A DNA stretch of 41,682 nt from Thermoleophilia bacterium (GCA_035517975.1 DATIYD010000239.1:1-41682); one strand, 5' to 3'; positions 16,990 through 34,323 are shown, counted from the stretch's first letter. The notes: generated from the letters alone by a model not told the origin. Made by a program: numbers and translations.

Positions 16990-17031
16990 CGCTTCCCGCG
17001 CAGATGGCCGTCTCACGCGACCACGTATCCT

Positions 17032-19674: not shown

Positions 19675-21198
19675 TCAGGCCCCGAGCAGCAGCCGCACGG
19701 CCCCCTGCGCGGCGGCGATGACGGGTGCCGGGTAGACCCCGACGATCAGCACGCCGAGCACGGTGACCGCGGTCGCGGCCGAGATGCCGGTGTCGGCCGT
19801 GAGCAGCGCGGGCTGCTCGGCCCCCTGCTCGGCCTCGCGGAAGTACAGATACCACACGACGCGCAGGTAGTAGAACGCCGACACCGCGCTCATGATGACG
19901 GCGACGACGGCGAGCCAGGTCAGGTGAGCCGAGACCACGGCCGAGAAGACGAAGAACTTGGCCCAGAAGCCGGCGAGCGGCGGGATGCCGGTGAGCGAGA
20001 GCATGAACAGGGTGAGGGCGAGCGCCGTGAGCGGCATGGAGCGGCCCAGACCGGCCAGTTCGTCGAGCGTGTAGGCGAAGGGCCGGCGGTTGCGGATCAG
20101 CACGAGCACACCGAAGGCGCCGAGGTTCATGAAGGTGTAGGCCGCGAGGTAGAAGAGCACGGCGCCGGCGCCGGCCGAGTCGTGGCTGCGCCCGACGGCG
20201 ACCAGGCCGAGCAGCAGGTAGCCGGCATGAGCGATGCTCGAGTAGGCCAGCATGCGTTTGAGGTTGCGCTGCGGCAGGGCGAGCACGTTGCCGACGACCA
20301 TGGTCAGCACGGCCAGCACGATCAGCACGTTGGACATGCTCTGCGACGCGGGGATCAGCGCGAAGGCGACGAGGCGCAGGAAGCCGGCGAAGGCCCCGGC
20401 CTTGATGCCCACCGACATGAACGCGGTGACCGGCGTGGGGGCGCCTTCGTACACGTCGGGCGCCCAGCCGTGGAACGGCACGGCCGCGATCTTGAAGCCG
20501 AAGCCGGTCGCCACGAGCACGAGCGCGACCAGCAGCATGGCGTTGCGCGGGTCGGTCGCGCGGAGCGCGTGGTGGATCGTCTGGTACCACGTGGCCCCGG
20601 TCGCGCCGTAGACGAGCGCCAGGCCGAACGCCAGCACCGCCGCGGCAAAGGCGCCGTTCAGGAAGTATTTGATGGCGGCCTCGCCCGAGCGCCGGTCGCT
20701 GCGCAGCACGCCGGCCAGCACGTAGCTGGGCAGCGACATGAGCTCGAACGAGACGAGCAGCGCGATCAGGTCGGTCGAGATCGCCATGCCGATCATGCCG
20801 GCGATGATGAGCAGCAGCAGGCCGTAGAACTCGCCGGGCCTGATGCGATGCTGGGCGAGGTAGCCGTCGGAGAGCATGATGGTGATCACGCCGATGCCGC
20901 AGAACAGGACGGTGAAGAACAGGCCGTAGAGGTCGAGCCTCACCATGCCGCTGAAGCCGTACTGGCCCTGGCGCGCGTTCATGGCAAGGCCGCCGTCGAA
21001 CACCCGCCAGAGGGCGGCGCCGCCGGTCCAGGTCGTCCACTGACCGACGGCGACGGCGCCGGCGACGACGAGGCCGCCGGCGGCAAGCCAGGCGATCGGG
21101 CGTGAGCGCTGCCCCACGAACAGGTCGGCGACGAGCACGACGACCGCCGCCACCACCACGATCACGGCCGGCAGGATGAGGAAGATCGAGTTGTTCAT
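19675..21198 (-). CDS. nuoN: NADH-quinone oxidoreductase subunit N
   Basis: 507 aa polytopic antiporter-like protein, last gene of the nuo run. It abuts the nuoM stop with no spacer. Confidence 0.9.
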   Translation of the reverse strand: MNNSIFLILPAVIVVVAAVVVLVADLFVGQRSRPIAWLAAGGLVVAGAVAVGQWTTWTGGAALWRVFDGGLAMNARQGQYGFSGMVRLDLYGLFFTVLFCGIGVITIMLSDGYLAQHRIRPGEFYGLLLLIIAGMIGMAISTDLIALLVSFELMSLPSYVLAGVLRSDRRSGEAAIKYFLNGAFAAAVLAFGLALVYGATGATWYQTIHHALRATDPRNAMLLVALVLVATGFGFKIAAVPFHGWAPDVYEGAPTPVTAFMSVGIKAGAFAGFLRLVAFALIPASQSMSNVLIVLAVLTMVVGNVLALPQRNLKRMLAYSSIAHAGYLLLGLVAVGRSHDSAGAGAVLFYLAAYTFMNLGAFGVLVLIRNRRPFAYTLDELAGLGRSMPLTALALTLFMLSLTGIPPLAGFWAKFFVFSAVVSAHLTWLAVVAVIMSAVSAFYYLRVVWYLYFREAEQGAEQPALLTADTGISAATAVTVLGVLIVGVYPAPVIAAAQGAVRLLLGA

Positions 21199-22787
<1,589 letters not shown>

Positions 22788-22788
<1 letters not shown>

Positions 22789-24683
22789 TAGGCCCCCCAC
22801 ACGTACCGGATGACGATGATGAGCACGAACAGGCCGCCGAAGACGCCGAAGGCATAGCTCTGGGCGCGGCCCGTCTGCAGCGGCCGCAGGGCGCGGCCGA
22901 AGGCGCCCCAGACCCAGGCCAGGCCGTTGACCGCGCCGTCGATGACCTTGACGTCGACGAACGTCCACAGCCACATGGCGAAGCCCATGACCGGGCGGAT
23001 CACGGCCGCGTCGTAGACCTCGTCCATGTAGAACTTGTGGTACGAAGCCTCATAGGCCCACGGCACGCGGGCGGCGGCCCTCGCCGGCACCTCGGGCCGC
23101 CGCAGGTAGGCCACGTAGGCCGTGGAGATGCCCAGCACGACGACGACGAGAGAGACCGCCATGAGGGCGCCGCCGCTGCCGGCCCAGGCGAAGTGCTCGT
23201 TCTCGACGCCGAAGAACACCGGCTGCAGGAACGTGTGCAGCCAGCCGGTGTCGGGCGGCAGACCGATCACCAGACCGAGCACGGCCGCCGGGACGGCCAG
23301 GATCACGAGCGGCACCGTCATGACACGCGGCGACTCGTGGATGTGGTCCTGGACCTCGGCGCTCGCCCGGCTTTCACCCCAGAAGGTGAGGAACATGAGG
23401 CGGAACATGAACAGCGCCGTCACGAAGGCGGTGATGATGCCGATCGCCCAGATGACGTAGTAGTGGGCCGCGAAGTCGCCGCCGAGGATCTCGTCCTTGG
23501 CCCAGAACCCGGCGAACGGGAACAGGCCGACGTTGGCCAGGGCGCCGATCAGCATGGTCCAGAAGGTGATGGGCAGCTTCTTGCGCAGACCGCCCATGCG
23601 CCGCATGTCCTGCTCGCCCGACATCGAGTGGATCACCGAGCCCGAACCCAGGAACAGCAGGCCCTTGAAGAAGCCGTGGGCGAACAGGTAGAAGATGGCG
23701 GCCACCCAGGCCCCGGCGCCCAGGGCCATGAACATGAAGCCGAGCGACGAGATGGTCGAGTAGGCGATCACCTTCTTGATGTCGTTCTGGGTGAGGGCGA
23801 TACAGGCCGCGTAGATGGCCGTGAAGGTGCCCACGCACATGACCACCAGCATGGCGGTGTGGGAGTGGCTCACGAGCGGGTAGCTGCGCGCAATGATGTA
23901 GACGCCGGCGTTGACCATGGTGGCGGCATGGATCAGGGCGCTGACCGGGGTCGGGCCCTCCATGGCGTCGGGCAGCCAGACGTGCAGCGGGAACTGGGCG
24001 CTCTTGCCCACCGCCCCGACGAAGAGCAGCAGGCTGATCCAGGTGACCAGGCCCGGGCTCACGTGCGGCACGGCGGCGAAGACCTTGCCGAACTGCAGCG
24101 AGCCGAAGGTGGTGAACATGAGGAACAGGCCCAGGGTGAAGCCCCAGTCGCCCACCCTGTTGACCAGGAAGGCCTTCTTGCCGGCCTGCGAGGCGCTCTT
24201 CTTCTGGAACCAGAACGAGATCAGCAGGTACGAGCACAGCCCCACGCCCTCCCAGCCCAGGAAGACCAGCAGGTAGTTGTTGGCCAGGATGAGCGTGAAC
24301 ATGGCGAACATGAAGAGGTTGAGGTAGGCGAAGAAGCGGTAGTAGCCCCCGTCGCCGCGCATGTAGCCGATCGAGTAGTAGTGCACGAGCATGCCGATGG
24401 TGCTCACGACGATCAGCATGACGGCGGCCAGCGAGTCGACGAGGTAGCCCCACTGCACGTGGAAGCTGCCGGCCGACACCCAGGTGAAAAGGTTGAAGTC
24501 GATCGTCTTGGTGTGCGCCCCGAAGACGTGGGCCACGACGATCATGCTGAGCACCCACGAGCCGGTCACGGCCACGAGCGAGATGAGCTCGGGCCGTCGC
24601 TTGAGCGGCCCGTTGCCGAGCAGCAGGGTCGCGACGAAGCCGGCCAGCGGCAGCAGCGGGATCAGGGCGATGATGGTGTGCAC
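22788..24683 (-). CDS. nuoL: NADH-quinone oxidoreductase subunit L
   Basis: 631 aa. MHTIIALIPLLPLAGF..., an antiporter-like core plus a long C-terminal amphipathic/TM extension. GTG start at 24681-24683. Confidence 0.92.
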
Positions 24684-24692
24684 GGCCGCCCC

Positions 24693-25001
24693 CTAGCCCT
24701 TCATCTCGCTGAACTCGTCGGCCTGCACCGAGCGGCGGTTGCGGTAGTTGGCGACGATGATGGCGAGCCCGACCGTGACCTCGGCGGCGGCCAGCGTGAT
24801 GATGAAGAGCACGAAGAAGGTGCCGCGCCCGGCCGCGCCCGGGATGAAATCGGCAAAGGCTGCGAGGGCGATGTTGACGGCGTTCAGCATGAGCTCGAGG
24901 CTCATCACGATGAGAATGACGTTGCGCCGCGCGAGCACACCGTAGGCGCCGATGCAGAACAGACCGACGGCGAGGGTCAGATACCAGTCGACGGGGCTCA
25001 C
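24693..25001 (-). CDS. nuoK: NADH-quinone oxidoreductase subunit K
   Basis: About 102 aa: VSPVDWYLTLAVGLFCIGAYGVLARRNVILIVMSLELMLNAVN... The GTG overlaps the nuoJ TGA (GTGA). The track ORF 24693..25460 is over-extended. Confidence 0.9.
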   Translation of the reverse strand: MSPVDWYLTLAVGLFCIGAYGVLARRNVILIVMSLELMLNAVNIALAAFADFIPGAAGRGTFFVLFIITLAAAEVTVGLAIIVANYRNRRSVQADEFSEMKG

Positions 25002-25507
25002 GGCTGATCCTCCCTGCGCGCCAGCACGATGGCGCCGATCATCGCGGCCAGCAGGACGAACGAGACGAGCTCGAACGGAAAGACGTAGCCGTTGAAGAGC
25101 CCGCTGGCGATCGCGGCCAGGGAGACGTTGTGGGCCTGCGAGCCGTTGGGCAGCATCTTCGAGGTCACGAGGACCACGGTGAGCACGACAAACATGGCCA
25201 CCGCCAGCGGCAGGGCGAAGATCGCCTGACGGTTGAAGAAGAAGCCCAGCGGCGCGTGGTGCTGCTCGGTCAGCATGATCGCGAAGAGCACGACCACCGA
25301 GATCGCGCCCACGTAGATCAGGATCTGGATGACGGCGAGCAGACCGGCGGCGAGCAGCACGTAGGCGGCCGCCACGCCGAGGAAGCAGAGCACCATGGCC
25401 ATCGCCGAATGGACGATGTTGCGGAAGGCCACGACGCCGAGCCCGCAGACCAGCACCCACACCGCGACGATCACGAACAGGACCGGATGGAAATCGCCGT
25501 GCGGCAT
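24998..25507 (-). CDS. nuoJ: NADH-quinone oxidoreductase subunit J
   Basis: 169 aa: MPHGDFHPVLFVIVAVWVLVCGLGVVAFRNIVHSAMAMVLCFLGVAAAYVLL... ATG at 25505-25507 overlaps the upstream stop by 1 nt. Confidence 0.9.
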   Translation of the reverse strand: MPHGDFHPVLFVIVAVWVLVCGLGVVAFRNIVHSAMAMVLCFLGVAAAYVLLAAGLLAVIQILIYVGAISVVVLFAIMLTEQHHAPLGFFFNRQAIFALPLAVAMFVVLTVVLVTSKMLPNGSQAHNVSLAAIASGLFNGYVFPFELVSFVLLAAMIGAIVLARREDQP

Positions 25508-27993
25508 CAGAGGTCGCGCTCCATCTCGTCGAGGGAGGCGCCGTCGCCCTTGACCGGCGTCCACTGCCAGCCGCCGCCCTCGACCGTCTCGCGGACGTGA
25601 GGCACGACGTCGGGCACGCACTCGCGGGGGCCGTCGCCGGGCTTGTCGCGGCGCACGAAGAGCGACTCGCCGGCCAGCAGGGTGCGGCTGTAGCCGGCCA
25701 GCTCGAAGAAGCCGGTCTGCTCGAGGGCGTCGTACGGGCAGACCTCGACGCATTCGCCGCAGAAGATGCAGCGGCTCTCGTCTAGGTCGTACCGGTCGAG
25801 GACCCTGCGATTGACGTCGATGGAGCCGGTCGGGCAGGTCTCGGCGCACTTGCCGCACGAGATGCAGCCGACCGTCTGCAGCGGCAGGTTGTCGGGCGTC
25901 GAGACGATCGTGTCCCAGCCGCGGCCGATGGCGTCGTAGCAGCTCGCCCCGACCTCCATGCGACAGACGCGCACGCAGCGCAGGCACATGATGCAGCGAT
26001 TGGGCTCGCGCATGATGAAGTCGTGGCGGAAGTCGGCTGGGTAGTCGTGCGCGGCCTGCCCGTGAAAGCGGTTCTCGAAGACCTCGTACTCGATGCCGTA
26101 GCGCTGCAGCTCGCAGCTGCCGTTGGCGGGACAGTGGCAATCGAGACAGAGCGCCGCGCCCTGCCGGGCCTGGTCTTCTGTCAAGCCGAGCTCGACCTCG
26201 TCGAAGCTCTTGATGCGCTCGCCGGGGGCAAGCGCCGGCATGGTGGCCGGCCCGACCGGCTGCGAGACGTCGGTCGTCATGTCGATGAACACCGGCGCGA
26301 CCTCGGCCAGGCGGGCGACGCCCGGCTCGAGGGCGTCGCGGGCCCGCAGGGCGTCGAGGAACGGTGTGGCGGCGAGGTCGGAGAGCGATCCCGAGACGGC
26401 CCGCATGTCGGCGCCGCGCAGGAAGGCGTCGATGCTCCAGGCCGCCTTCTTGCCCTGAGCGACCGCCTCGATCACGGTCTGGGCCCCGAGCACGACGTCG
26501 CCCCCGGCGAACACCCGGGGGTCGTCGGTCTGGAAGGTGAATCGGTCGACCTCGACGGTCTGTCGCGAGGTGCGCTTGACGCCCTGCGCCTCGCTCGTGC
26601 CGTCGAGCTTCGGGAGCTGGCCCGTGGCGTTGATCACCTGGTCGCAGGCGAGGACGAAGGTCGGCCCGTCGACGGGCTGCGTCCGGCTCTGACCCGAGTC
26701 GCCGGGCGCGACCTCGAGACGCCGCATCTCGATGCCGGTGACCTTGCCCTTGGCGCCGACGACCACGCGCACGGGCTCGACCAGCGTCTCGAGGCGGGCG
26801 CCCTCGCTCACGGTCGCCGCGACCTCGTCGGGCGGAGCCGACTGGGCGCCGGGCGCGCTCGCCGAGAGCAACGTGACCTCGCGCGCGCCCTTGCGCAGCG
26901 CGACGCGGCAGGCTTCGGTGGCGGCGAAACCGTCGCCGACGACGGCTACCTTGCGACCGACGCGCGCCTCGTCGCCGAGCTCGAGTGCGCCGAGGAGCTC
27001 GAGCGCGTCGAGCACGTCGGCGCCGTCGTGCTCGACCGGCAGCGGCGCGGCGGCGAAGGCGCCCAGGCCGAGGAAGACGGCGTCGAAGCGCGCGGTCAAG
27101 GCGTCGAGCTGCTCGTCGTCGCCCAGGCGAGTGTTGCACCGGAGCTCGACGCCCATGCGCCACAACACGTTCAGCTCCTTGTCGATCACGTCGCGCGGCA
27201 GGCGGAAGCTCGGGATGCCGTAGCGCAGCATGCCGCCCGGTTTGGGCAGGGCCTCGAAGATCGTTACGGCGTGGCCCTCGAGCCGGGCGTAGAACGCGCA
27301 GGCGAGGCCCGCCGGACCGGCGCCCACGATGGCGACCGTCTTGCCGCTGTCGGGCTTGGGCTCCCACGGCAGCAGCAGCTCGCCGGTCTGCTCGTCGTCT
27401 AAGCACTGGTCGGCCATGAAGCGGTGCAGCCAGCAGATGGTGATCGCGTCGTCGACGAGGCGGCGCCGGCAGGGCTCCTCGCAGGGCCGCGGACACACGC
27501 GCCCGAGAATGGCCGGGAACGGCAGGTCCTCGCGCAGCTTGCGCACGCCCGACCGATAGTCGCCGTTGGCGACGGCCTCGAGGAACTGCGGGATCTTGAT
27601 GTGCGTCGGGCAGGCGTCGCTGCAGGGCGGCGTGCAGAACGAGTTGTGATCGGACAGCAGGAGCTCGAGGTAGAGGCGCCGCATGCGGCGCACCTTGTCG
27701 GTGTCCGTGAGCACGACGATGCCGTCGGCCGCCATGGTCGAGCAGCTCGAGACGGGTTTGCCCCAGCCCTCGACCTCGACCATGCACAGGCGGCAGGCGG
27801 CAGAGGCCGGCAGGCGCGACTCGTAGCACAGCGTGGGGATGTGGACGCCGACCCGGGCGGCCGCCTGCAGGATGGTCTCACCCTTGTCGCACGTGACCTC
27901 GCGGCCGTCGATGGTGAGCGAGATCTGCTCGGCGCGCGACGCGGCCGCCTGGGGCGCCCCGGCGTTCTTCGACGTGTCGTGGGCGATCGTCAT
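25507..27993 (-). CDS. Chimeric Fe-S flavoprotein: NuoG/HydA-type N-terminal [2Fe-2S] + GltD/NfnB-like FAD/NAD(P)H oxidoreductase + NuoG/HydA-type [4Fe-4S] motifs + C-terminal half of NuoI
   Basis: About 828 aa from ATG 27991-27993, with ATGA overlap with the nuoF stop. The track merges it into a 1429-aa ORF. Motifs in order: ISLTIDGREVTC...TLCYES...CRLCMVEVEG...SSCS; LELLLSDHNSFCTPPCSDACPTHIKIPQF...GRVCPRPCEEPC; KTVAIVGAGPAGLACAFY...PGGMLRYGIP; RKVAVVGDGFAATEA; FAGGDVV; ERIKSFDEVELGLTEDQARQGAALCLDCHCPANGSCELQ; CIMCLRCVRVC...CISCGKCAETCPTGSI; RCIFCGECVEVCPYDALEQTGFFELAGYSRTLL. No molybdopterin-like domain. Confidence 0.85.
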   Translation of the reverse strand: MTIAHDTSKNAGAPQAAASRAEQISLTIDGREVTCDKGETILQAAARVGVHIPTLCYESRLPASAACRLCMVEVEGWGKPVSSCSTMAADGIVVLTDTDKVRRMRRLYLELLLSDHNSFCTPPCSDACPTHIKIPQFLEAVANGDYRSGVRKLREDLPFPAILGRVCPRPCEEPCRRRLVDDAITICWLHRFMADQCLDDEQTGELLLPWEPKPDSGKTVAIVGAGPAGLACAFYARLEGHAVTIFEALPKPGGMLRYGIPSFRLPRDVIDKELNVLWRMGVELRCNTRLGDDEQLDALTARFDAVFLGLGAFAAAPLPVEHDGADVLDALELLGALELGDEARVGRKVAVVGDGFAATEACRVALRKGAREVTLLSASAPGAQSAPPDEVAATVSEGARLETLVEPVRVVVGAKGKVTGIEMRRLEVAPGDSGQSRTQPVDGPTFVLACDQVINATGQLPKLDGTSEAQGVKRTSRQTVEVDRFTFQTDDPRVFAGGDVVLGAQTVIEAVAQGKKAAWSIDAFLRGADMRAVSGSLSDLAATPFLDALRARDALEPGVARLAEVAPVFIDMTTDVSQPVGPATMPALAPGERIKSFDEVELGLTEDQARQGAALCLDCHCPANGSCELQRYGIEYEVFENRFHGQAAHDYPADFRHDFIMREPNRCIMCLRCVRVCRMEVGASCYDAIGRGWDTIVSTPDNLPLQTVGCISCGKCAETCPTGSIDVNRRVLDRYDLDESRCIFCGECVEVCPYDALEQTGFFELAGYSRTLLAGESLFVRRDKPGDGPRECVPDVVPHVRETVEGGGWQWTPVKGDGASLDEMERDL

Positions 27994-29915
27994 GCCTGGG
28001 GCCGCCCTTCGCCGGCCGCCTCGGGCCGCTCGCTGCCGGACCACACCTTGACGGCCTTGAAGTTGCAGACCTGCCGGCAGGTGTCGCACTTGATGCAGAG
28101 GCTCTCGTCGATCACGTGGAGCTGCTTCTTCTCGCCGGTGATCGCCTGGGTCGGGCACTTCTTGGCGCACAGCCCGCAGCCGGTGCAGTCGCCGCCGATG
28201 TAGTAGGTGATGAGCGCCTTGCAGCGGCCGGCTGGGCAGCACTTGTCGTCGACGTGGGCCACGTACTCGTGGCGGAAGTACTGCAGCGTGGAGAGGACGG
28301 GGTTCGGGGCGCTGCCGCCGAGGGCGCACAGTGACCCGTCGATGATGTACTCGGAGAGCTCCTCGAGCAGATCGATGTCGCCGGGACGCCCCTCGCCTTC
28401 GGTGATGCGCACCAGCGTCTCGAGCATGCGTTTGGTGCCCAGGCGGCAGGGCACGCACTTGCCGCAGCTCTCGTCCTGCGTGAACTGCAGGAAGAACTTG
28501 GCGAAGTCGACCATGCAGGTGGTGTCGTCGACCACGACCATGCCGCCGGAACCCATCATGGAGCCGGCGGCGAGCAGGCTCTCGAAGTCGACCGGGGAGT
28601 CGAGCAGGTCGGCCGGCAGGCAGCCGCCCGAGGGGCCGCCGAGCTGGACCGCCTTGAACTCGCGGCCGGGCAGCATGCCCCCGCCGACATCGAAGATGAC
28701 CTCGCGCAGCGTGGCGCCCATCGGCACTTCGACGAGGCCGCCGTTCTTGAGCTTGCCGGTGAGACTGAAGATCTTGGTGCCCTTCGAGGTCTCGGTGCCC
28801 ATCGCCGTGTAGGCGTCGACGCCGTTGTTCACGATCCACGGCACGTTGGCGTAGGTCTCGACGTTGTTCAGGTTGGTGGGCTGACCGTAGAGGCCGTGGG
28901 CCACCGTGCGGATGTGCTTGCCACGCGGCATGCCGCGCTGCCCCTCGATGCTCGCCGTGAGCGCCGTCGATTCGCCGCAGACGAAGGCGCCGGCGCCCTG
29001 GTTCACGCGGATGTCGAAGTCGAACCCCGAGCCCAGGATGTCGTCGCCCAGCAGGCCGCGCTCGCGCGCCTGCACGAGGGCGGCCTCGAGGCGCTGCACG
29101 GCGAACGGGTACTCGGCGCGCACGTACACGTAGCCGTGCACGGGAGCGGCGCCCGAGCCGATGGCGAAGGCCGCGATGATCATGCCCTCGATCACCGAGT
29201 GCGGGTTGCCCTCGAGGACCGAGCGGTCCATGAAAGCGCCGGGGTCGCCTTCGTCGCCGTTGCAGATGACGTACTTGCAGTCGCCCGGGTTGGCCCGGCA
29301 GAAGCGCCACTTCTTGCCGGCGGGAAAGCCGGCGCCGCCGCGACCGCGCAGGCCCGACCTGGTGATCGCGTCGATCACGCTTTCGGGATCGTTCTCGGCC
29401 AGCACCGTGGCGAGGGCGGTGTAGCCGTCCTGGGCGAGGTAGTCGTCGATCGAGTAGGGATCGATCTTGCCGTTCAGATGAAGGACGAGGCGCTTCTGGC
29501 CCGCATAGAAGGGGATGTCGCGCTCGTAAGGCACGGGCTCGCCGCTCGTGGGGTCTCTGTAGAGGCGCTTCTCGTAGACGCCGTCGGCGGCGATGCTGGC
29601 CGCGATGATGCCGGCCACGTCGGTGGCCCGCACCCGCGAGTAGAACAGGCCCTGCGGCTGCAGCACCACGATCGGCCCCTGCTCGCAGAAGCCGTGGCAG
29701 CCGGTCTCGACGACGCGCACCGTGTCGGTCAGGCCCTGCTCGGCGAGCTGGTCGCGGAAGGCGGCGGTGACCGCCGGCCGGCCCGAGGCGTGGCACGCGG
29801 TGCCGGCGCAGATGCGGACCTCGCGGGCACCCTCGTGGGCGATGATCCCGTCGGGATGAAGGGCCCGCTCGAGGGCGGCGCTCACGGCGGCGGCGCGATC
29901 GGTCGTTGCGCTCAT
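27990..29915 (-). CDS. nuoF: NuoF-family FMN/NADH subunit of the HydB/HoxF-like extended type
   Basis: 641 aa. N-terminal thioredoxin-like [2Fe-2S] domain (CAGTAC...CHGFC). Core motifs are GLRGRGGAGFPAGKKW, YVICNGDEGDPGAF and ESCGKCVPCRLG...SLCALG. The C-terminal 2x[4Fe-4S] domain has CTGCGLCAKKCP...CIKCDTCRQVC. Confidence 0.9.
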   Translation of the reverse strand: MSATTDRAAAVSAALERALHPDGIIAHEGAREVRICAGTACHASGRPAVTAAFRDQLAEQGLTDTVRVVETGCHGFCEQGPIVVLQPQGLFYSRVRATDVAGIIAASIAADGVYEKRLYRDPTSGEPVPYERDIPFYAGQKRLVLHLNGKIDPYSIDDYLAQDGYTALATVLAENDPESVIDAITRSGLRGRGGAGFPAGKKWRFCRANPGDCKYVICNGDEGDPGAFMDRSVLEGNPHSVIEGMIIAAFAIGSGAAPVHGYVYVRAEYPFAVQRLEAALVQARERGLLGDDILGSGFDFDIRVNQGAGAFVCGESTALTASIEGQRGMPRGKHIRTVAHGLYGQPTNLNNVETYANVPWIVNNGVDAYTAMGTETSKGTKIFSLTGKLKNGGLVEVPMGATLREVIFDVGGGMLPGREFKAVQLGGPSGGCLPADLLDSPVDFESLLAAGSMMGSGGMVVVDDTTCMVDFAKFFLQFTQDESCGKCVPCRLGTKRMLETLVRITEGEGRPGDIDLLEELSEYIIDGSLCALGGSAPNPVLSTLQYFRHEYVAHVDDKCCPAGRCKALITYYIGGDCTGCGLCAKKCPTQAITGEKKQLHVIDESLCIKCDTCRQVCNFKAVKVWSGSERPEAAGEGRPQA

Positions 29916-29969: not shown

Positions 29970-30731
29970 TCATCGGTCGACCTCGGCGCGGTGACGCAGG
30001 TCGTTCACCAGTGCCCGCGCCTTGTCGGGGCTCATGCGGCCGTGGGTCTCGTCGTCGCCCAGCCTGACGACGGGAGCGAGGGCGCAGGCGCCGACGCAGC
30101 TCACCGTCTGCAGGGTGAAGAGCCGGTCCTTGCTGGTCTTCCCGACCTCGAGGTCGAGCTCGTCGGAGAAGGCTTCGGTGATGAGCGGGGCGCCGGCCAC
30201 GTGGCAGGCCGTGCCGTGACAGACGGTGATCACGAAGCGGCCGACCGGCGAGAGGCGGAACTGGTCGTAGAAGCTCGCCACGCCGTAGAGCTGCGAGAGC
30301 GAGACGCCGGTCTCGACCGCGATCTCCTGCAGGGCGAGCCGGGGCAGGTAGCCGTAGATCTCCTGGGTGTGCTGCAGGACCGCCATGAGGCCGGTGCCGG
30401 TCTCGCGGTAGTGATCGATGACCGGCGTGATCTGGGTGAGGTCGGGGACCGGCTGAGAGTCGGCGCGCACGCGCTGGATCCGGGCCTCGTTGACGGCCGG
30501 CAGCTCATAGCTGGAGTGGTAGTTCACGCGGATGACCTGGACCGGGCAGTTGGTCTCGCACAGCGTGCAGGCGCGGCAGCGCGGCTCGCCCGAAGCCGGG
30601 TCGAGAGCCACCCGGAACAGGCCGCGGCTGCGCTCGGGCAGCTGCTCGCGCTGTTCGGGGTACTGCACCGTGATCTTGCGCTGCGGCAGGTGACCCAGGG
30701 TGGTGCGCATGGCTTTGAGGATGCCGAGCAT
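29970..30731 (-). CDS. Fusion of the N-terminal half of NuoI (first CxxCxxCxxxCP motif) to a NuoE-type thioredoxin-like [2Fe-2S] subunit
   Basis: 253 aa from ATG 30729-30731, with 1-nt overlap with the nuoH stop. It opens with MLGILKAMRTTLGHLPQRKITVQYPEQREQLPERSRGLFRV...EPRCRACTLCETNCPVQVIRV. The NuoE part follows: LMAVLQHTQEIYGYLP...LYGVASFYDQFRL...VCHGTACHVAG...SCVGACALAPV. Confidence 0.85.
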   Translation of the reverse strand: MLGILKAMRTTLGHLPQRKITVQYPEQREQLPERSRGLFRVALDPASGEPRCRACTLCETNCPVQVIRVNYHSSYELPAVNEARIQRVRADSQPVPDLTQITPVIDHYRETGTGLMAVLQHTQEIYGYLPRLALQEIAVETGVSLSQLYGVASFYDQFRLSPVGRFVITVCHGTACHVAGAPLITEAFSDELDLEVGKTSKDRLFTLQTVSCVGACALAPVVRLGDDETHGRMSPDKARALVNDLRHRAEVDR

Positions 30732-31852
30732 CAGGTGAGCACCGCCACGCTCTTGCGCCGCCGCTCGAGGCGCCAGCGCAGCACCCTGTCGAAGAGGCCG
30801 ACGAAGGCGAGCAGGAAGATCCAGCTGTAGATCGCCATGGCGCCCTTCCAGTGCGGCGCCCACAGCATGACGGCGGCCGTCGCGAGGAGGTTGACCAGGC
30901 CGAGCGGGACCAGCACCTTCCAGGCGAAGCCCATGAGCTGGTCGACCTGGAGACGGGGCACCGACAGGCGGATCCAGATAAGGGCGAACACGAGCGCGTA
31001 GACCTTGATCAGGAACCAGAGGAGCGGCACGATCGCGACCCCGTGGATGACGATGGCGTTGGCCAGCGGCCCCTGCCAGCCGCCCAGGAACAGGGTGACC
31101 GTGACCATCGACATGATGGTCATGCCGGCGTACTCGTTCAGGAAGAACATGCCGAAGCGCATGCCGGAGTACTCGGTGCCGTAGCCGGCGACCAGCTCGG
31201 ATTCGGACTCGGGCAGGTCGAACGGCCCGCGGTTGAGCTCGGCGATGGAGGCGATGAAGAACAGCAGGAACGTGAAGGGCATGGTGAAGACGAACCACTG
31301 GTAGCGGCTCTGGGCGGTCACCACGGTGTTCAGGCTGAGCGAGCCGGCCGCCATGGCGACGACGAGCAGGGCGAGGATCATGGGCAGCTCGTAGGAGATC
31401 ATCTGGGCGCCCGAACGCAGCGCGCCGACGAGCGAGTACTTGTTGTGCGAGGCCCAGCCGCCGAGCAGGATGGCAAGCACGGTGAAGCTCGTGATGGCGA
31501 CGATGTAGATGAGGCCGACGTTCAGGTTCTGGTCGGTCCAGCCGCTGGTGTAGGGGATCACGACCTGGATGGCGACGGCGCCGATCATGACCATGATCGG
31601 CGCCAGCGTGAACATCGCCTTGTCGGCCGCAGTCGGCGCGAAGTCCTCTTTGCCCATCATCTTGAAGGAGTCGGCGACGCTCTGCAGGATGCCCTGCCAG
31701 CCGGTACGGTTGGGTCCGAGGCGGTCCTGCAGGAAGGCGAGCATGCGGCGCTCGAAGAGGATGTTCACGAGCGCGGCCGCGAACACGATGCCGTAGGCGA
31801 TGACGACGGCCACGAGCAGGCGCACGACGGCCCAGACGAGATCCCAGCTCAT
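30731..31852 (-). CDS. nuoH: NADH-quinone oxidoreductase subunit H
   Basis: 373 aa: MSWDLVWAVVRLLV...FERRMLAFLQDRLGPNRTGWQGILQSVADSFKMMGKEDF...FDLPESESELVAGYGTEYSGMRFGMFFLNEY. ATGA overlap with the nuoD stop. The track ORF is over-extended to 32737. Confidence 0.92.
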   Translation of the reverse strand: MSWDLVWAVVRLLVAVVIAYGIVFAAALVNILFERRMLAFLQDRLGPNRTGWQGILQSVADSFKMMGKEDFAPTAADKAMFTLAPIMVMIGAVAIQVVIPYTSGWTDQNLNVGLIYIVAITSFTVLAILLGGWASHNKYSLVGALRSGAQMISYELPMILALLVVAMAAGSLSLNTVVTAQSRYQWFVFTMPFTFLLFFIASIAELNRGPFDLPESESELVAGYGTEYSGMRFGMFFLNEYAGMTIMSMVTVTLFLGGWQGPLANAIVIHGVAIVPLLWFLIKVYALVFALIWIRLSVPRLQVDQLMGFAWKVLVPLGLVNLLATAAVMLWAPHWKGAMAIYSWIFLLAFVGLFDRVLRWRLERRRKSVAVLT

Positions 31853-33063
31853 CGGTCGATCCCCCCGAGGACGAGGTCCATGCTGCCCGAGATGGCGACC
31901 GCGTCGGCGATCTTGTTGCCGCGCAGGAGCTTGGGGAAGATCTGCAGGTTCACGAAACAGGGGTCGCGGTACTTCAGGCGGTAGGGGTAGCGCGAGCCGT
32001 CGCTCACGATGTAGGTGCCGTACTCGCCGCGCGGGTTCTCCTGGGCCGTGTAGCAGGCGCCGGGCGGCGGGGTCACGATGTAGGGCGCCCGCAGGGTGCC
32101 GAGCTGCACCGGCCCCGCCGGCAGCATGTCGAGGCACTGCAGCACGATCCTGGCTGATTCGCGGATCTCGTCGACGCGAACCTGGTAGCGGTCGAACACG
32201 TCGCCGTGCTGGCCCAGACAGACCTCGAAGTCGAGCTCGGGATAGACCGAATAGGGCCGCGTACGGCGCAGGTCGTGAGCCACGCCCGAAGCGCGCGCGT
32301 TGGGCCCCGTGATGGCGTAGTCGGCGACGTCTTCCTGGGTCATGACGCCCTTGCCGAGACAGCGCTGCAGAAAGACGGCGTTGTCGTTGACGAGGGCCTC
32401 GTACTCCTTGCACCAGGCGGGTACCTGGAGCATCAGCTCGCGGCAGGTGTCGACCCAGCCGTCGGGCAGGTCGTAGCGCACGCCGCCGAAGCGGAAGTAG
32501 TTGAACATCATGCGGGCGCCGCTGGCCGCCTCGAGCAGGTCGAGGATCTTCTCGCGGTGGCGGAAGGCGTAGAAGACCATGGCGGTACCGAGCGGGGCGA
32601 GATCGGCGGTGAAGGTGCCCACGCCGACCTGGTGGCTGGCGATGCGGTTGAGCTCGGCCATGATCACGCGGATGAACTCGGCGCGACGGGTGGGCTCGAT
32701 GCCGGCGAGCTTCTCGACGGTGCGCACGTAGCCCCACTCGCAGTTCATGCCGGCGACGTACTCGGTGCGGTCGACGATCGGGATGTACTGGTAGTAGGTG
32801 CGCTTCTCGGCGATCTTCTCCTTGCTGCGGTGGAGATAGCCGACGACCGGGATGACGTCTTTGACGAGCTCGCCGTCGAGCGTGACGACCAGGCGCAGCA
32901 CGCCGTGGGTCGACGGGTGCTGGGGGCCCATGTTGACGACCACCTGGTTGAAACCCAGGCCGGCCATCTCGCTGCCCCGGCCGGCCGCCTCGGAATCGGC
33001 GATGCGGCGCAGGGCCAGGGCCATGGCCTCGTCGGGCGCGCTCGTGGCGAACTGGTCAGACAT
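31849..33063 (-). CDS. nuoD: NADH-quinone oxidoreductase subunit D
   Basis: 404 aa. Contains VVNMGPQHPSTHGVLRLVVTLDGE...HRSKEKIAE... and a C-terminal DLVLGGIDR. Confidence 0.92.
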   Translation of the reverse strand: MSDQFATSAPDEAMALALRRIADSEAAGRGSEMAGLGFNQVVVNMGPQHPSTHGVLRLVVTLDGELVKDVIPVVGYLHRSKEKIAEKRTYYQYIPIVDRTEYVAGMNCEWGYVRTVEKLAGIEPTRRAEFIRVIMAELNRIASHQVGVGTFTADLAPLGTAMVFYAFRHREKILDLLEAASGARMMFNYFRFGGVRYDLPDGWVDTCRELMLQVPAWCKEYEALVNDNAVFLQRCLGKGVMTQEDVADYAITGPNARASGVAHDLRRTRPYSVYPELDFEVCLGQHGDVFDRYQVRVDEIRESARIVLQCLDMLPAGPVQLGTLRAPYIVTPPPGACYTAQENPRGEYGTYIVSDGSRYPYRLKYRDPCFVNLQIFPKLLRGNKIADAVAISGSMDLVLGGIDR

Positions 33064-33550
33064 TGGGGTGGTTCTCGATCGTGTCGACGTAGTCCTTGCG
33101 CAGGGGGTGTCCGACCCAGTCGTCGGGCAGCAGGATGCGGCGCGGGTCGGGATGCCCCTCGAAGCGGATGCCCATCATGTCGTACGCCTCGCGCTCGTGC
33201 CAGTCGGCCGCCGGCCACACATCGGACACCGTGTCGACGACCGGCTTGGCGCGCAGCACCGAGACGTGCAGCTCGAGGTAGGTGTTCGAGGCAAAGGAGT
33301 AGAGGTGGTAGACCGTCTCGAAGCTGTCTCCGAGATCGACGGCGGCGATGAAGTTGCACGACTCGTAGGCCAGGTCTTCGAGCGCACGCAGCCGCAGGGC
33401 GACGTCGTGCAGCCGGCTGCGATCGACCACCGCGACCACCGTGTCGGGCTCCTGGACGCGAGGATCGGTGAGGTCGGCCGCGAAGGCCGCGGCCAGTCGC
33501 GCGGCGACGTCGTCGATCGACAGGCCGGCCGAACCGATGGCGGGCAGCAC
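33056..33550 (-). CDS. nuoC: NADH-quinone oxidoreductase subunit C
   Basis: About 164 aa from GTG 33548-33550, 2 nt after the nuoB stop. Contains ...VYHLYSF...VSDVWPAADWHEREAYDMMGIRFEGHPDPRRILLPDDWVGHPLRKDY. Confidence 0.85.
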   Translation of the reverse strand: MLPAIGSAGLSIDDVAARLAAAFAADLTDPRVQEPDTVVAVVDRSRLHDVALRLRALEDLAYESCNFIAAVDLGDSFETVYHLYSFASNTYLELHVSVLRAKPVVDTVSDVWPAADWHEREAYDMMGIRFEGHPDPRRILLPDDWVGHPLRKDYVDTIENHPNV

Positions 33551-33552
33551 GG

Positions 33553-34323
33553 CTACTCCCTCGCCTTCTCGAGATCGTCGCCCGCACCCGTGAGGGCCGC
33601 GGCCGGGCCGGCCGCCGCGACCGGTGCCTCGTCGGACGCGGCCTCGTCGGACGGCGCCGTGTCGGGCGAGGCCTCGCCGGGCGCGGCCTCGCCGGGCGGC
33701 GCGACCGGCAGGTCGGCCGCCGACAGGTCGGCCGCCGACTGCTGCGCCGCCGCCCGGGCACTCGCCGCCGCGGCGGCGTCGTCGGCCGGCAGGGGCGGCA
33801 CGATACGCATGGCCTGGATCTTCTTCTGCAGCTCGAGCAGGCCCTGGAACAGGGCCTCGGGGCGGGGCGGACAGCCGGGGATGTAGACGTCGACCGGCAC
33901 GATCTTGTCGACGCCGTTCACCACGTTGTAGCCGTCGTAGAAGGGTCCGCCGCTCGTGGCGCAGGCGCCCATGGCGATGACCCACTTGGGCTCGGACATC
34001 TGCTCGTAGAGACGCTTGAGGACCGGCGCCATCTTCTCGTTGACGGTGCCGGCCACGATCATGAGGTCGCACTGCCGGGGCGTCGGCCGGAAGACCTCCA
34101 TGCCGTAGCGCGCGACGTCGAAGCGGGCGAAGCCCGAGCTCAGCATCTCGATCGCGCAGCAGGCGAGGCCGTAGGTGAAGGGGAACACCGAGTGCGAGCG
34201 CGCCCAGCTGAAGATGAAGTCGACCGTGGTGGTGACCACGTTCGGCCGCTCGAACTGGCTGATGTTCGGGTAGTGGATACGGTCGGCGAGGGGGCCCAGG
34301 CCGACGCCGTCGATCAGACCCAC
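33553..34323 (-). CDS. nuoB: NADH-quinone oxidoreductase subunit B with an about 85-aa low-complexity C-terminal extension
   Basis: The core contains [12 protein letters not shown]...[15 protein letters not shown]...[16 protein letters not shown]...[15 protein letters not shown]. An Ala/Pro/Asp/Ser-rich tail follows. The GTG at 34321-34323 is inferred and overlaps the nuoA end by 10 nt. Confidence 0.85.
33626..33739. repeat. Three adjacent 15-nt tandem duplications inside the nuoB tail
   Basis: gcctcgtcggacg appears twice (33626-33655), gcctcgccgggcg twice (33671-33700), and aggtcggccgccgac twice in perfect copies (33710-33739). They encode duplicated pentapeptides ([10 protein letters not shown] and similar). 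Confidence 0.8.

What the first reader, a model, noticed from the sequence alone, without database searches (positions are those of the whole stretch)
25507..27993. NuoG position occupied by a chimera carrying a GltD/NfnB-like FAD/NAD(P)H oxidoreductase and lacking the molybdopterin-like domain
The subunit starts like NuoG/HydA with a [2Fe-2S] domain (TLCYES...CRLCMVEVEG...SSCS). It later has HydA/FdhA-type [4Fe-4S] motifs: CIMCLRCVRVC and a complete CISCGKCAETCPTGSI, not the degenerate second motif of NuoG. Between them sit about 500 aa that read as a glutamate-synthase small-subunit / NfnB-type enzyme. Its motifs are CxxxCxxxCP...IPQF, GRVCPRPCEEPC, the FAD site VAIVGAGPAGLACAF...PGGMLRYGIP, a second dinucleotide fold, and FAGGDVV. 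The large C-terminal molybdopterin-like domain of NuoG is missing. The chain instead runs straight into the NuoI C-half. A second pyridine-nucleotide site wired into complex I could mean NADPH as well as NADH input, or a transhydrogenase/bifurcation-like activity coupled to the proton-pumping module. As I recall, 2Fe-2S plus GltD fusions occur in soluble Sporomusa-type Nfn (StnC-like) enzymes, not in nuo operons.
Basis: partly seen in the sequence, partly recalled or inferred. Interest (0 to 1): 0.8.

Follow-up and report, generated by a model that had tools for sequence, protein, structure and literature searches.

The report
Complex I with split NuoI and Nfn-type module
In this uncultured Thermoleophilia bacterium the respiratory complex I operon has its small iron-sulfur subunit NuoI cut in two, and a three-gene NAD(P)H/ferredoxin-handling module of the "Bfu/Nfn" electron-bifurcating type is stitched between the halves, an undescribed way of plugging an electron-input module into complex I.

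Summary
Window 27993..25507 (minus strand) encodes an 828-aa protein with this order of domains: [2Fe-2S] domain, GltD/NfnB-like FAD flavoprotein with two [4Fe-4S] clusters, three further [4Fe-4S] clusters, then the C-terminal half of NuoI. It has no molybdopterin-like domain.

The operon is nuoA-B-C-D-H-[NuoI N-half::NuoE]-[HydB-type NuoF]-[this protein::NuoI C-half]-J-K-L-M-N. So an 11-subunit-type operon carries an Nfn/Stn-type BfuABC cassette inserted inside nuoI.

About 44-50 species-level Thermoleophilia/Actinomycetota metagenome-assembled genomes (MAGs) keep this arrangement, with all cluster cysteines conserved. The closest solved structures are the soluble bifurcating transhydrogenases NfnABC and StnABC. 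The F-like subunit carries the Bfu signatures.

By homology, NfnA's "dead-end" A2-A4 cluster branch here leads through the reassembled NuoI to cluster N2 and quinone.

One caveat applies to this window. Its own sub-lineage has lost the NADPH-binding YRR signature, and the NADPH subdomain evolves under relaxed constraint, so an NADPH input is doubtful in this organism.

A "Nuo-Bfu" complex I was predicted in 2022, but without GltD, without a split NuoI, and not in Actinomycetota. Verdict: a real feature and a new variant of a known kind; its function is inferred, not shown.

The parts
25507..27993 (-). The target gene: an 828-aa BfuA/NfnA-like subunit fused to the NuoI C-half
27700..27930 (-). 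Residues 22-98: [2Fe-2S] domain (cluster A1; C56, C67, C70, C84)
   Evidence: Pfam Fer2_4, E 1e-19. The cysteines are invariant.
27397..27636 (-). Residues 120-199: GltD/DPD-type domain with two [4Fe-4S] clusters (A6/A7; C120, C124, C128, C167, C171, C175, C187/H190)
   Evidence: Pfam Fer4_20; alignment to 9bov_A. Lys170 of Csac NfnA aligns with His190 here.
26404..27393 (-). Residues 201-530: FAD-binding fold plus second dinucleotide fold (NfnL/GltD-like)
   Evidence: Pyr_redox_2, residues 219-514; TIGR01316. AF2 pLDDT is mostly 80-96 here. Foldseek finds NfnA/StnC first, then NfnI-L, GltD and DPD.
26584..27003 (-). Residues 331-470: NAD(P)H-binding subdomain, with a degenerate 2'-phosphate loop in this window (LLSASAPGAQSA instead of LYRRSRKEMPA)
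25822..26163 (-). Residues 611-724: three [4Fe-4S] clusters. A3 uses C616, C619, C621, C627. A2/A4 use CIMCLRCVRVC and CISCGKCAETCP.
   Evidence: Pfam NADH-G_4Fe-4S_3 and Fer4_Nqo3. Alignment to 9bov_A residues 537-700. Cysteines invariant.
25654..25821 (-). Residues 725-780: NuoI C-half (DVNRRVLDRYDLDESRCIFCGECVEVCPYDALEQTGFFELAGYSR)
   Evidence: TIGR01971 positions 69-113. Alignment to NDUFS8/TYKY. tblastn.
25510..25653 (-). Residues 781-828: C-terminal tail with the conserved motif VPHV..G.GW.W.P
29970..30731 (-). 253-aa fusion. NuoI N-half: residues 1-75, nt 30507-30731, motif CRACTLCETNCP. Linker follows. NuoE/BfuC [2Fe-2S] thioredoxin-like domain: residues 104-253.
   Evidence: Pfam 2Fe-2S_thioredx, residues 104-245, E 1e-42. 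TIGR01971 positions 2-66 on residues 8-74. In 121 sequences C52, C58, C62 and the four NuoE cysteines are in all sequences and C55 is in 99%.
27990..29915 (-). 641-aa BfuB/HydB-type NuoF: N-terminal [2Fe-2S] domain, FMN/NADH site, SLBB, B1 cluster, Zn (B2) site, C-terminal 2x[4Fe-4S]
30731..34682 (-). nuoA (34314-34682), nuoB (33553-34323), nuoC (33056-33556), nuoD (31849-33063), nuoH (30731-31852)
   Evidence: Pfam. NuoB, NuoD and NuoH pass NCBIfam cut-offs.
19675..25507 (-). nuoJ (24998-25507), nuoK (24693-25001), nuoL (22788-24683), nuoM (21199-22788), nuoN (19675-21198)
   Evidence: Pfam for nuoJ and nuoK. NuoL passes the NCBIfam cut-off. nuoM and nuoN are assigned from the called-gene Pfam hits (Proton_antipo_M) in the syntenic locus L001 and from synteny.

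Best explanation
The 828-aa protein is the 'A' subunit of an Nfn/Stn-type BfuABC module that serves as the electron-input module of a complex I with an 11-subunit-type backbone.

At gene level, the cassette (NuoE-like C, HydB-like B, GltD-bearing A) sits inside nuoI, at the hairpin between NuoI's two ferredoxin motifs. The NuoI N-half is fused to the N-terminus of BfuC. The NuoI C-half replaces the Fdh/NuoG-like domain at the C-terminus of BfuA.

The two halves must reassemble into a TYKY-like 2x[4Fe-4S] domain (N6a/N6b), with each cluster ligated from two polypeptides. This both anchors the module and wires it.

Inferred electron paths:
- NADH <-> FMN-B1-A1-A2
- NADPH <-> FAD-A7-A6-A3-A2 (in most family members)
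- ferredoxin <-> B4-B3-(C1)-FMN
- the hub A2 -> A4 -> N6a -> N6b -> N2 -> menaquinone, coupled to proton pumping by NuoH/J/K/A/L/M/N

The branch that is a dead end in soluble NfnA (A2-A4) becomes the exit to the quinone.

Shown: domain content, the split, gene order, conservation, and Bfu signatures. Inferred: physical assembly, the wiring, the substrates, and whether NADH and reduced ferredoxin are confurcated. In this window's own sub-lineage the NADP(H) port appears to be decaying.
For: Split NuoI:
- TIGR01971 positions 2-66 lie on the NuoE fusion and positions 69-113 on the target.
- The concatenated halves align end to end with NDUFS8/TYKY/Nqo9 of solved complex I, E 9e-20.
- There is no other NuoI-like gene in the window.
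- The operon genes are tightly coupled by TGATG/ATGA overlaps.

Conservation:
- The order A-B-C-D-H-[I_N::E]-F-[A::I_C]-J-K-L-M-N is kept in about 44-50 GTDB species genomes.
- The module has diverged to the same degree as the backbone.
- There are more than 120 90%-identity clusters of each fusion protein.
- The I_N part is the best-conserved part of its protein. The 8 NuoI cysteines are conserved: the four in I_C are invariant in 62 homologues, and those in I_N are in 99-100% of 121 sequences.

Bfu type:
- The F-like subunit scores 789 bits against the NiFe-Bfu B subunit (7t2r_B) and 708-731 bits against HydB/NfnB/StnB. T. thermophilus Nqo1 matches far more weakly, E 1.8e-108.
- It has the GAFMD signature and the Zn/B2-site ligands C467, H554, C560, C565 (the features are defined in PMC9304861 and PMC11829005).
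- The ligands of B5, B1, the Zn/B2 site and B3/B4 are kept in 46-52 of 53 orthologues.

The A subunit is closest to NfnA/StnC by both sequence and fold.

Structural rationale from Csac NfnABC cryo-EM (PMC11829005):
- The electron path is FAD-A7-A6-A3-A2-A1-[B1-FMN-C1]-B3-B4.
- A2-A4-A5 is a dead-end branch running into the Fdh-like domain.
- The NfnC N-terminal domain sits against that Fdh-like domain.
- So the end of the A4 domain and the N-terminus of the C subunit both meet at the place where NuoI now lies.
- Only 21 residues separate the last Cys of the A4 motif from the first Cys of NuoI motif 2.

NuoB, NuoD, NuoH and NuoL are bona fide complex I subunits. An IOR-type ferredoxin-reducing enzyme is encoded 9 kb away.
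Against: - There is no structural or biochemical evidence for assembly of the two NuoI halves. AF2 was uninformative for residues 618-828 (pLDDT below 50) and for the concatenated NuoI (pLDDT 31).
- In canonical complex I the exit to NuoI runs through N5 (the A3-equivalent cluster), not A4. The proposed A4 route therefore rests on covalent adjacency and on the NfnA structure only.
- In the window's sub-lineage the NADPH site has lost its YRR signature.
- The A7 ligand Lys is His in this family.
- One contig (L080) carries E-F-A without the I_N part and without nuoA-H upstream.
- I could not check whether the same genomes also hold an intact nuoI or a canonical nuoEFG.
Confidence: 0.6

Rival explanations
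1. The module is a plain NADH dehydrogenase. It merely replaces NuoEFG as a non-bifurcating NADH:quinone input. The GltD domain and the extra BfuB domains (B5, B3/B4) are structural leftovers of the soluble ancestor.
For: The NADPH subdomain is decaying in the window's sub-lineage. Soluble NfnA itself carries vestigial parts: the A4/A5 branch and a pterin-less Fdh domain (PMC11829005). NADH to menaquinone is sufficient to drive a complex I.
Against: In 110 of 120 family clusters the NADPH signature is intact, and the NADPH subdomain is as conserved as the FAD domain, 0.85 versus 0.83-0.87. The B5 and B3/B4 cluster cysteines, the Zn-site ligands and GAFMD are retained across the family. According to PMC9304861, characterised non-bifurcating relatives lack the B2-B5 sites.
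Confidence: 0.22
2. The enzyme works mainly in reverse. Proton-motive force drives electrons from menaquinol uphill through NuoI into the Bfu core and the GltD domain, producing NAD(P)H and/or reduced ferredoxin for biosynthesis.
For: Complex I and Bfu enzymes are reversible (established knowledge; PMC9304861). The same wiring allows flow in either direction. The family occurs in soil, peat and sediment MAGs.
Against: Nothing in the sequence indicates direction. Ferredoxin-producing catabolic enzymes lie next to the operon, which suggests that reductant is available rather than scarce.
Confidence: 0.1
3. The three genes encode a soluble Stn/Nfn-type transhydrogenase that happens to lie in the nuo operon. 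The NuoI fragments would be non-functional remnants of a disrupted gene.
For: The E/F/A proteins are closest to soluble NfnABC/StnABC. L080 shows E-F-A without I_N.
Against: The NuoI halves are among the most conserved parts of both fusion proteins, and all 8 cysteines are conserved. Without NuoI the conserved 11-subunit backbone would have no path to N2. The A subunit has lost the Fdh-like domain that holds NfnC in the soluble enzyme. Start and stop codons overlap throughout.
Confidence: 0.05
4. The arrangement is an assembly, frameshift or binning artefact.
For: The source is a MAG contig. Some related MAGs are long-read assemblies that show frameshifts.
Against: The same architecture appears in dozens of independent assemblies from different projects and in more than 120 protein clusters of each fusion, at 60-97% identity.
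Confidence: 0.01

Closest known systems
Nfn-Bfu / Stn transhydrogenases: C. saccharolyticus NfnABC (PDB 9bov), S. ovata StnABC (8oh5), T. sibiricus NfnABC (9n5u)
   Same: The gene order is the same three genes: NuoE-like, then HydB-like, then the A subunit. The A subunit has the [2Fe-2S] N-terminal domain, the NfnL/GltD-like FAD domain with two [4Fe-4S] clusters, an all-Cys A3 cluster, and the A2/A4 ferredoxin domain. Target residues 23-750 align with these structures at 34-37% identity in the Foldseek alignments. The B subunit has the N-terminal [2Fe-2S]/Zn domain, the Zn site, GAFMD and the C-terminal 2x[4Fe-4S].
   Different: The known enzymes are soluble. Their A subunit is 950-1180 aa and ends in an Fdh/NuoG-like domain with the A5 cluster. 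Here that domain is replaced by the NuoI C-half, and the C subunit carries the NuoI N-half. The genes lie inside a nuo operon. The A7 ligand Lys is His. The NADPH YRR loop is lost in this window.
Nuo-Bfu: predicted 14-subunit complex I with a BfuABC module (Schut et al. 2022, PMC9304861; Geobacter, Deferribacteres, Planctomycetes, Nitrospirae)
   Same: Bfu-type E/F/G genes sit in the middle of a nuo cluster. The predicted function is reduction of menaquinone with NADH plus reduced ferredoxin, coupled to proton pumping.
   Different: As described, Nuo-Bfu has 14 separate subunits (A-N) with BfuABC replacing NuoEFG. No GltD/FAD domain and no split NuoI are mentioned, and no Actinobacteria are in the dataset. 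Nuo-Bfu itself is uncharacterised. I did not inspect its sequences.
Canonical NuoG/Nqo3 and NuoI/Nqo9 of 14-subunit complex I
   Same: The N-terminal [2Fe-2S] and ferredoxin-like cluster domains are homologous to NuoG (E 1e-20 to 1e-26 over residues 13-125). The NuoI halves together match the whole NuoI profile.
   Different: There is no Mo-pterin-like domain. The A4 cluster is retained, whereas NuoG has lost it. A3 is all-Cys, not His-ligated. A 400-aa flavoprotein is inserted. NuoI is on two polypeptides. The module lies between nuoH and nuoJ, not between nuoD and nuoH. TIGR01973 scores 107 bits against a cut-off of 470.
11-subunit complex I-like enzymes (NUO11: cyanobacterial NDH-1, Chlorobium, Desulfitobacterium, Ca. 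Actinomarina)
   Same: The backbone gene order A-B-C-D-H-I-J-K-L-M-N has nothing between nuoD and nuoH. Such operons exist in Actinobacteria (PMC3144371, PMC11238625).
   Different: Those enzymes have an intact NuoI and no encoded NAD(P)H module; their donor is ferredoxin or unknown.
Mbx-like operons with a gltD-related flavoprotein in place of NuoI (Degli Esposti 2015, PMC4758237)
   Same: A GltD-type NAD(P)(H) flavoprotein is attached at the NuoI position of a complex I-related membrane complex.
   Different: There NuoI is substituted rather than split, the backbone is hydrogenase/Mrp-derived, and there is no NuoE/NuoF (Bfu) core. This was not examined here at sequence level.

Membership tests
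Bfu family (BfuABC; PMC9304861) | BfuB with an FMN-binding Nuo51 domain, SLBB, the NuoF 4Fe-4S domain and a C-terminal 4Fe-4S dicluster domain | tested here: met
   Pfam Complex1_51K, SLBB, NADH_4Fe-4S and Fer4 x2, plus an N-terminal 2Fe-2S_thioredx domain. 789 bits against 7t2r_B.
Bfu family (BfuABC; PMC9304861) | The conserved His of the B2/Zn site and the A202/M204 (GAFMD) residues that are absent from non-bifurcating NuoF | tested here: met
   H525 aligns with H554, C438 with C467, C531 with C560, and C536 with C565. GAFMD is present. C476 is Thr. The four Zn/B2-site ligands are kept in 49-52 of 53 orthologues, and GAFMD is conserved in the same alignment.
Bfu family (BfuABC; PMC9304861) | A NuoE-like BfuC with the C1 [2Fe-2S] cluster, and a BfuA with a 2Fe-2S domain plus a 4Fe-4S ferredoxin-type domain | tested here: met
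Bfu family (BfuABC; PMC9304861) | Electron bifurcation/confurcation between NAD(H), ferredoxin and a third substrate | not testable with these tools
   This needs enzyme assays.
Nfn-Bfu / StnC-type A subunit | An NfnL/GltD-like FAD domain with the A6/A7 clusters, inserted after the 2Fe-2S domain | tested here: met
   The A7 cysteines are conserved, but the Lys ligand is His190.
Nfn-Bfu / StnC-type A subunit | An NADPH-binding second Rossmann fold (GGGxxA ... YRR) | tested here: not met
   The window has GDGFAA ... LLSASAPGAQSA. The feature is met in 110 of 120 family clusters. The subdomain is relaxed in the window's sub-lineage.
Nfn-Bfu / StnC-type A subunit | A C-terminal Fdh/NuoG-like (molybdopterin-fold) domain with the A5 cluster | tested here: not met
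   The protein ends 100 aa after A4. There is no Molybdopterin or Molybdop_Fe4S4 hit. PDB relatives continue for another 250-480 aa.
NuoG (TIGR01973) | A full-length match including the Mo-pterin-like domain, above the curated cut-off | tested here: not met
   106.6 bits against a cut-off of 470. The best stretch covers only residues 26-122 (profile positions 1-96 of 606), and there is no molybdopterin-domain hit in the protein or window.
NuoI (TIGR01971) | Both ferredoxin motifs in one polypeptide, above the cut-off | tested here: not met
   Each half scores 51-56 bits against a cut-off of 113. Together the halves cover profile positions 2-113 of 121, and once concatenated they align with TYKY.
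Glutamate synthase small subunit GltD (TIGR01317) | A score above the cut-off | tested here: not met
   213 bits against a cut-off of 447.7. Partnership with GltB was not tested; the annotated neighbours are nuo genes.
Complex I (NADH:quinone oxidoreductase) backbone | NuoA, B, C, D, H, J, K, L, M and N in one operon, with curated-model matches | tested here: met
   Pfam matches for NuoA, B, C, D, H, J and K. NuoB, D, H and L are above NCBIfam cut-offs. NuoM and NuoN are assigned from the called-gene Pfam hits of the syntenic locus L001 and from synteny.
Nuo-Bfu (predicted, PMC9304861) | BfuABC genes inside a nuo cluster, giving 14 separate subunits A-N | tested here: inconclusive
   The Bfu genes are inside the nuo cluster (met). 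However, there are 13 genes, NuoI is split and fused, and the A subunit is of Nfn type. The phylogenetic relation to BfuB clades 38/39 was not tested.

The most novel reading that the evidence does not exclude
This would be a membrane-bound, proton-pumping, four-substrate redox hub. A genuine electron-confurcating/bifurcating Bfu core (NADH plus ferredoxin), with an NADP(H) port in most members, would be covalently stitched to the quinone module of complex I through a NuoI whose two clusters are each shared between two polypeptides.

It would also be an independent, convergent recruitment of an N-module by an 11-subunit ancestor. That makes it a living analogue of the step that created 14-subunit complex I. 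Its wiring would differ from the canonical enzyme, with the exit through A4 rather than N5.
Probability: 0.3. Interest if true: 0.85.

Novelty: new variant of a known kind. Interest (0 to 1): 0.68.

Why it matters
- Origin of the NADH module. How complex I acquired its NADH module is a long-standing question. Here an 11-subunit-type backbone has taken up a different module, at a different place (inside nuoI), by gene fusion. That gives a second, independent example to compare with.
- A test case for coupling. It offers a tractable way to ask whether Bfu-type bifurcating cores can be coupled to a proton pump, which so far is only predicted as 'Nuo-Bfu'.
- A dead-end branch put to use. A cluster branch that is a dead end in soluble NfnABC can be reused as a functional wire.
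- Annotation and metabolic models. The family is widespread in soil, peat, lake and digester Thermoleophilia, a poorly understood but abundant group. Current annotations read 'FAD-dependent oxidoreductase', 'formate dehydrogenase major subunit' and 'NuoE', which hide a complete complex I and would mislead metabolic reconstructions.

Tried and rejected
Structure prediction:
- AF2 on the concatenated NuoI halves as a single sequence gave pLDDT 30.8, which is uninformative.
- AF2 on the full protein with 62 homologues gave a good 2Fe-2S/GltD part but pLDDT below 50 for residues 618-828. It says nothing about how the A4 domain and the NuoI half pack.

Alternative readings considered and rejected:
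- That the A4 motif and the NuoI C-half motif form a self-contained dicluster domain, as the Pfam Fer4_7 hit at residues 710-756 might suggest. Rejected because CIMCLRCVRVC and the I_N motif would be left without partners, and because NfnA pairs the homologous motifs 1 and 2.
- That the protein is glutamate synthase GltD or an authentic NuoG. Rejected on curated cut-offs.
- That the protein is a formate dehydrogenase, which is the JGI name for several homologues. Rejected because there is no Mo-pterin domain.

Searches that did not resolve the question:
- Literature searches for this architecture found nothing beyond the Nuo-Bfu prediction and the Mbx-like/gltD remark. The terms covered Thermoleophilia, split or fused NuoI, Nuo-Bfu, and GltD plus complex I.
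- I could not place BfuB or NuoD in a labelled phylogeny, because no labelled outgroup sequences were available.

Full report
**What is there.** The window has 64-72% G+C. It matches a Thermoleophilia metagenome-assembled genome (MAG) contig of the same length: P0001 is 100% identical and named 'MAG TPA: FAD-dependent oxidoreductase [Thermoleophilia bacterium]'. On the minus strand, 27993..25507 encodes an 828-aa protein.

- Pfam finds Fer2_4 (residues 22-98), Fer4_20 (120-199), Pyr_redox_2 (219-514), a weak NADH-G_4Fe-4S_3 (619-642), Fer4_Nqo3 (659-724) and two Fer4 motifs (710-758).
- NCBIfam finds gltA/GltD-family models over residues 120-530 (E 2e-89 and weaker).
- It also finds the composite PRK12814 architecture over residues 22-678, and NuoI (TIGR01971) profile positions 69-113 on residues 728-772.
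- No molybdopterin-like domain exists in the protein or anywhere in the window.

**The context changes the picture.** All neighbouring genes are on the same strand and are mostly joined by overlapping stop/start codons. The order is:

- nuoA, B, C, D, H
- a 253-aa protein
- a 641-aa NuoF-like protein
- the target
- nuoJ, K, L, M, N (nuoL-N)

The 253-aa protein has NuoI profile positions 2-66 at residues 8-74, including CRACTLCETNCP. A 30-residue linker and a complete NuoE [2Fe-2S] domain follow. NuoI is therefore cut between its two ferredoxin motifs. Its N-half is fused to NuoE, and its C-half is fused to the end of the target.

Joined in silico, the halves align end to end with NDUFS8/TYKY/Nqo9 of solved complex I structures (E 9e-20). 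The break falls in the hairpin between the motifs. Target DVNRRVLDRYDLDESRCIFCGEC corresponds to TYKY [22 protein letters not shown]. A TYKY fragment finds no other NuoI-like gene in the window.

The backbone order, with nuoD directly followed by nuoH, is that of 11-subunit complex I operons. Such operons exist in Actinobacteria. NuoB, D, H and L pass NCBI's curated cut-offs for complex I subunits.

**It is real and conserved.**

- More than 120 90%-identity clusters of full-length homologues exist (64-76% identity, about 825 aa). More than 120 clusters of the 251-253-aa I_N::E fusion also exist.
- A scan of one genome per GTDB species returned 80 loci. tblastn synteny shows A-B-C-D-H-[I_N::E]-F-[A::I_C]-J-K-L-M-N wherever the contig is long enough. 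Both halves were recovered as intact ORFs in 44 loci.
- The genomes are Thermoleophilia/Actinomycetota MAGs from soil, peat, lakes and an anaerobic membrane bioreactor.
- The module has diverged to the same degree as the backbone.
- All cluster cysteines of the target are invariant. In 121 I_N::E sequences the four NuoE cysteines and C52, C58 and C62 are in all sequences and C55 is in 99%; the I_N segment is the best-conserved part of that protein.
- Among 1.84 billion representatives at 50% identity, the whole family collapses into one cluster (1346 bits). The next hit drops to 564 bits and 43% identity. This is a narrow clade of single origin.

**What the module is.** The target's best solved relatives are these A subunits:

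- C. saccharolyticus NfnABC (9bov_A, E 2e-154)
- S. ovata StnABC (8oh5_C, E 9e-137)
- T. sibiricus NfnABC (9n5u_A, E 3e-123)

Classical NfnB/NfnL (E 1e-69), GltD (1e-43) and DPD follow far behind. Foldseek on an AF2 model gives the same ranking; the model has pLDDT 80-96 over most of residues 20-560. The solved relatives align to target residues 23-750 and then continue into a 250-480-aa Fdh/NuoG-like domain that the target lacks.

The 641-aa protein is a BfuB/HydB-type subunit:

- It scores 789 bits against the NiFe-Bfu B subunit and 708-731 bits against HydB/NfnB/StnB. T. thermophilus Nqo1 matches far more weakly, E 1.8e-108.
- It has the N-terminal [2Fe-2S] domain and the C-terminal 2x[4Fe-4S] domain.
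- It has the GAFMD signature and the His/Cys3 site (C467, H554, C560, C565) that PMC9304861 and PMC11829005 describe as typical of bifurcating members.
- These ligands are kept in 46-52 of 53 orthologues.

The cassette is thus an Nfn/Stn-type BfuABC, in the same gene order (C, B, A) as the soluble enzymes.

**Inferred wiring.** In Csac NfnABC the electron path is FAD-A7-A6-A3-A2-A1-[B1-FMN-C1]-B3-B4. A2-A4-A5 is a dead-end branch into the pterin-less Fdh-like domain. The N-terminal domain of NfnC sits in a cleft formed by that Fdh-like domain and NfnB (PMC11829005).

In the target, the last Cys of the A4 motif (CISCGKCAETCP) is followed after 21 residues by the first Cys of NuoI motif 2. The C subunit carries the NuoI N-half at its N-terminus. 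Both attachment points therefore converge on the place that the Fdh-like domain occupies in the soluble enzyme.

The simplest reading is that NuoI takes that place and that A2-A4 now leads to N6a/N6b, N2 and the quinone. The FMN, FAD and ferredoxin branches stay as in NfnABC. This is inference from homology, and it differs from canonical complex I, where the exit to NuoI runs via N5 (the A3 equivalent). PMC9304861 proposes that in some other Bfu types partner modules also connect via A4.

**A caveat specific to this window.**

- 110 of 120 family clusters carry GGGFTA...LYRRSRKEMPA in the second Rossmann fold, the signature shared with NfnA (VVGGGNTAMD...LYRRTREEMPA).
- The window and eight relatives (P0001-4, P0008-12) instead carry GDGFAA plus an Arg-poor loop that differs among them.
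- In that sub-lineage the NADPH subdomain has 0.59 mean pairwise identity, against 0.76-0.91 for the neighbouring domains. In the main clade it is as conserved as the FAD domain, at 0.85.

The 'second pyridine-nucleotide site' is therefore probably functional in the family at large. It is under relaxed constraint, or has changed specificity, in the organism of this window.

**Origin.** The same genomes hold a paralogue that is 53-59% identical over residues 4-746. In it the same cassette is fused to a genuine FdhA domain with an in-frame TGA (selenocysteine), and no NuoE/F lies nearby. Other distant relatives fuse the cassette to a TPP domain or leave it free. The 2Fe2S-GltD-FeS cassette is thus a mobile NAD(P)H entry module, and its fusion to NuoI is one more use of it.

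I could not determine two things: whether the backbone nests within NUO11 enzymes, and whether BfuB is nearer to Nfn-type or to the predicted Nuo-type clades.

**Literature.**

- PMC9304861 predicted a 14-subunit 'Nuo-Bfu' complex I in Geobacter, Deferribacteres, Planctomycetes and Nitrospirae. It proposed that NADH plus reduced ferredoxin jointly drive menaquinone reduction.
- PMC4758237 noted mbx-like operons in which a gltD-related flavoprotein replaces NuoI.
- No paper in the searchable library describes a split NuoI, an Nfn-type A subunit in a nuo operon, or this Thermoleophilia enzyme.

**Function.**

- Most likely (0.6): the module is the physically attached electron-input arm of a menaquinone-reducing, proton-pumping complex I. 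It has an NADH site, a retained ferredoxin branch, and an NADP(H) port in most lineages.
- A plain non-bifurcating NADH module with vestigial domains is the main rival (0.22). A chiefly reverse-running enzyme (0.1) and a merely co-encoded soluble transhydrogenase (0.05) are less likely. An artefact is excluded.

**What failed.** One contig (L080) has E-F-A without I_N and without nuoA-H upstream, and remains unexplained.

**Verdict.** The feature is real and is a new variant of a known kind. It combines an Nfn-type Bfu module, complex I and a split, fused NuoI.

Noticed in passing
L042 8914-13257 (also L040-L051, L061, L072): The same Thermoleophilia genomes carry a paralogue, 53-59% identical over residues 4-746. 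In it the 2Fe2S-GltD-FeS cassette is fused to a full FdhA domain with an in-frame TGA ('..DHCART*HAPTV', a likely selenocysteine). No NuoE/F genes lie within 9 kb. It may be an NADPH-linked formate dehydrogenase.
   Followed up: partly
window 26584-27003 (target residues 331-470): The NADPH-binding subdomain is degenerate in this window and 8 close relatives (GDGFAA, with YRR lost). Mean pairwise identity there is 0.59, against 0.85 in the main clade. This points to lineage-specific relaxation or a change of specificity.
   Followed up: yes
L080 6414-10176 (PKWR01000154.1, MAG labelled Coriobacteriia, palsa_660): An E-F-A cassette 69-77% identical to the window's. Its NuoE lacks the NuoI N-half, and unrelated genes, not nuoA-H, lie upstream. 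The contig ends inside the A gene, and a scaffold gap (NN) lies about 400 bp upstream of that junction. A nearly identical A protein (P0005, L083) is followed by nuoJ-K-L. This is either a mis-join or a lineage where I_N is encoded elsewhere.
   Followed up: partly
window 33553-33780 (NuoB C-terminus): NuoB carries a C-terminal tail of about 75 aa rich in Ala, Pro, Asp and Glu. The NuoB of L001 (184 aa) lacks it. Similar low-complexity tails occur on TatA/B (34992-35555) and on some homologues of the target (P0005, P0009, P0021, P0068, P0116).
   Followed up: no
window 38685-41627 (minus strand): A gene cluster for a PaaK-like AMP-forming ligase, an ACT-pair protein, and IorB/IorA-like 2-oxoacid:ferredoxin oxidoreductase subunits. 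This suggests a ferredoxin-reducing aromatic amino-acid catabolism next to the nuo operon.
   Followed up: partly
target residue 190 (window about 27424-27426): The Lys that ligates the A7 [4Fe-4S] cluster in Csac and S. ovata NfnA (Lys170) aligns with His190 here, which is invariant in the family. Invariant Cys187 lies three residues before it. Mutating that Lys to Cys abolished bifurcating activity in the S. ovata enzyme.
   Followed up: no
P0241 (1049 aa, representative library): This is the nearest protein outside the family (43% identity). It has the same cassette plus an extra ferredoxin motif, fused to a TPP_enzyme_C domain. This is another partner for the NAD(P)H-entry cassette.
   Followed up: no
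window 14228-15934 (+): A 568-aa ORF with no Pfam hit at E <= 1e-5. It lies next to polysaccharide-synthesis genes (an epimerase at 15943-17016 and a sugar transferase at 17032-18717).
   Followed up: no
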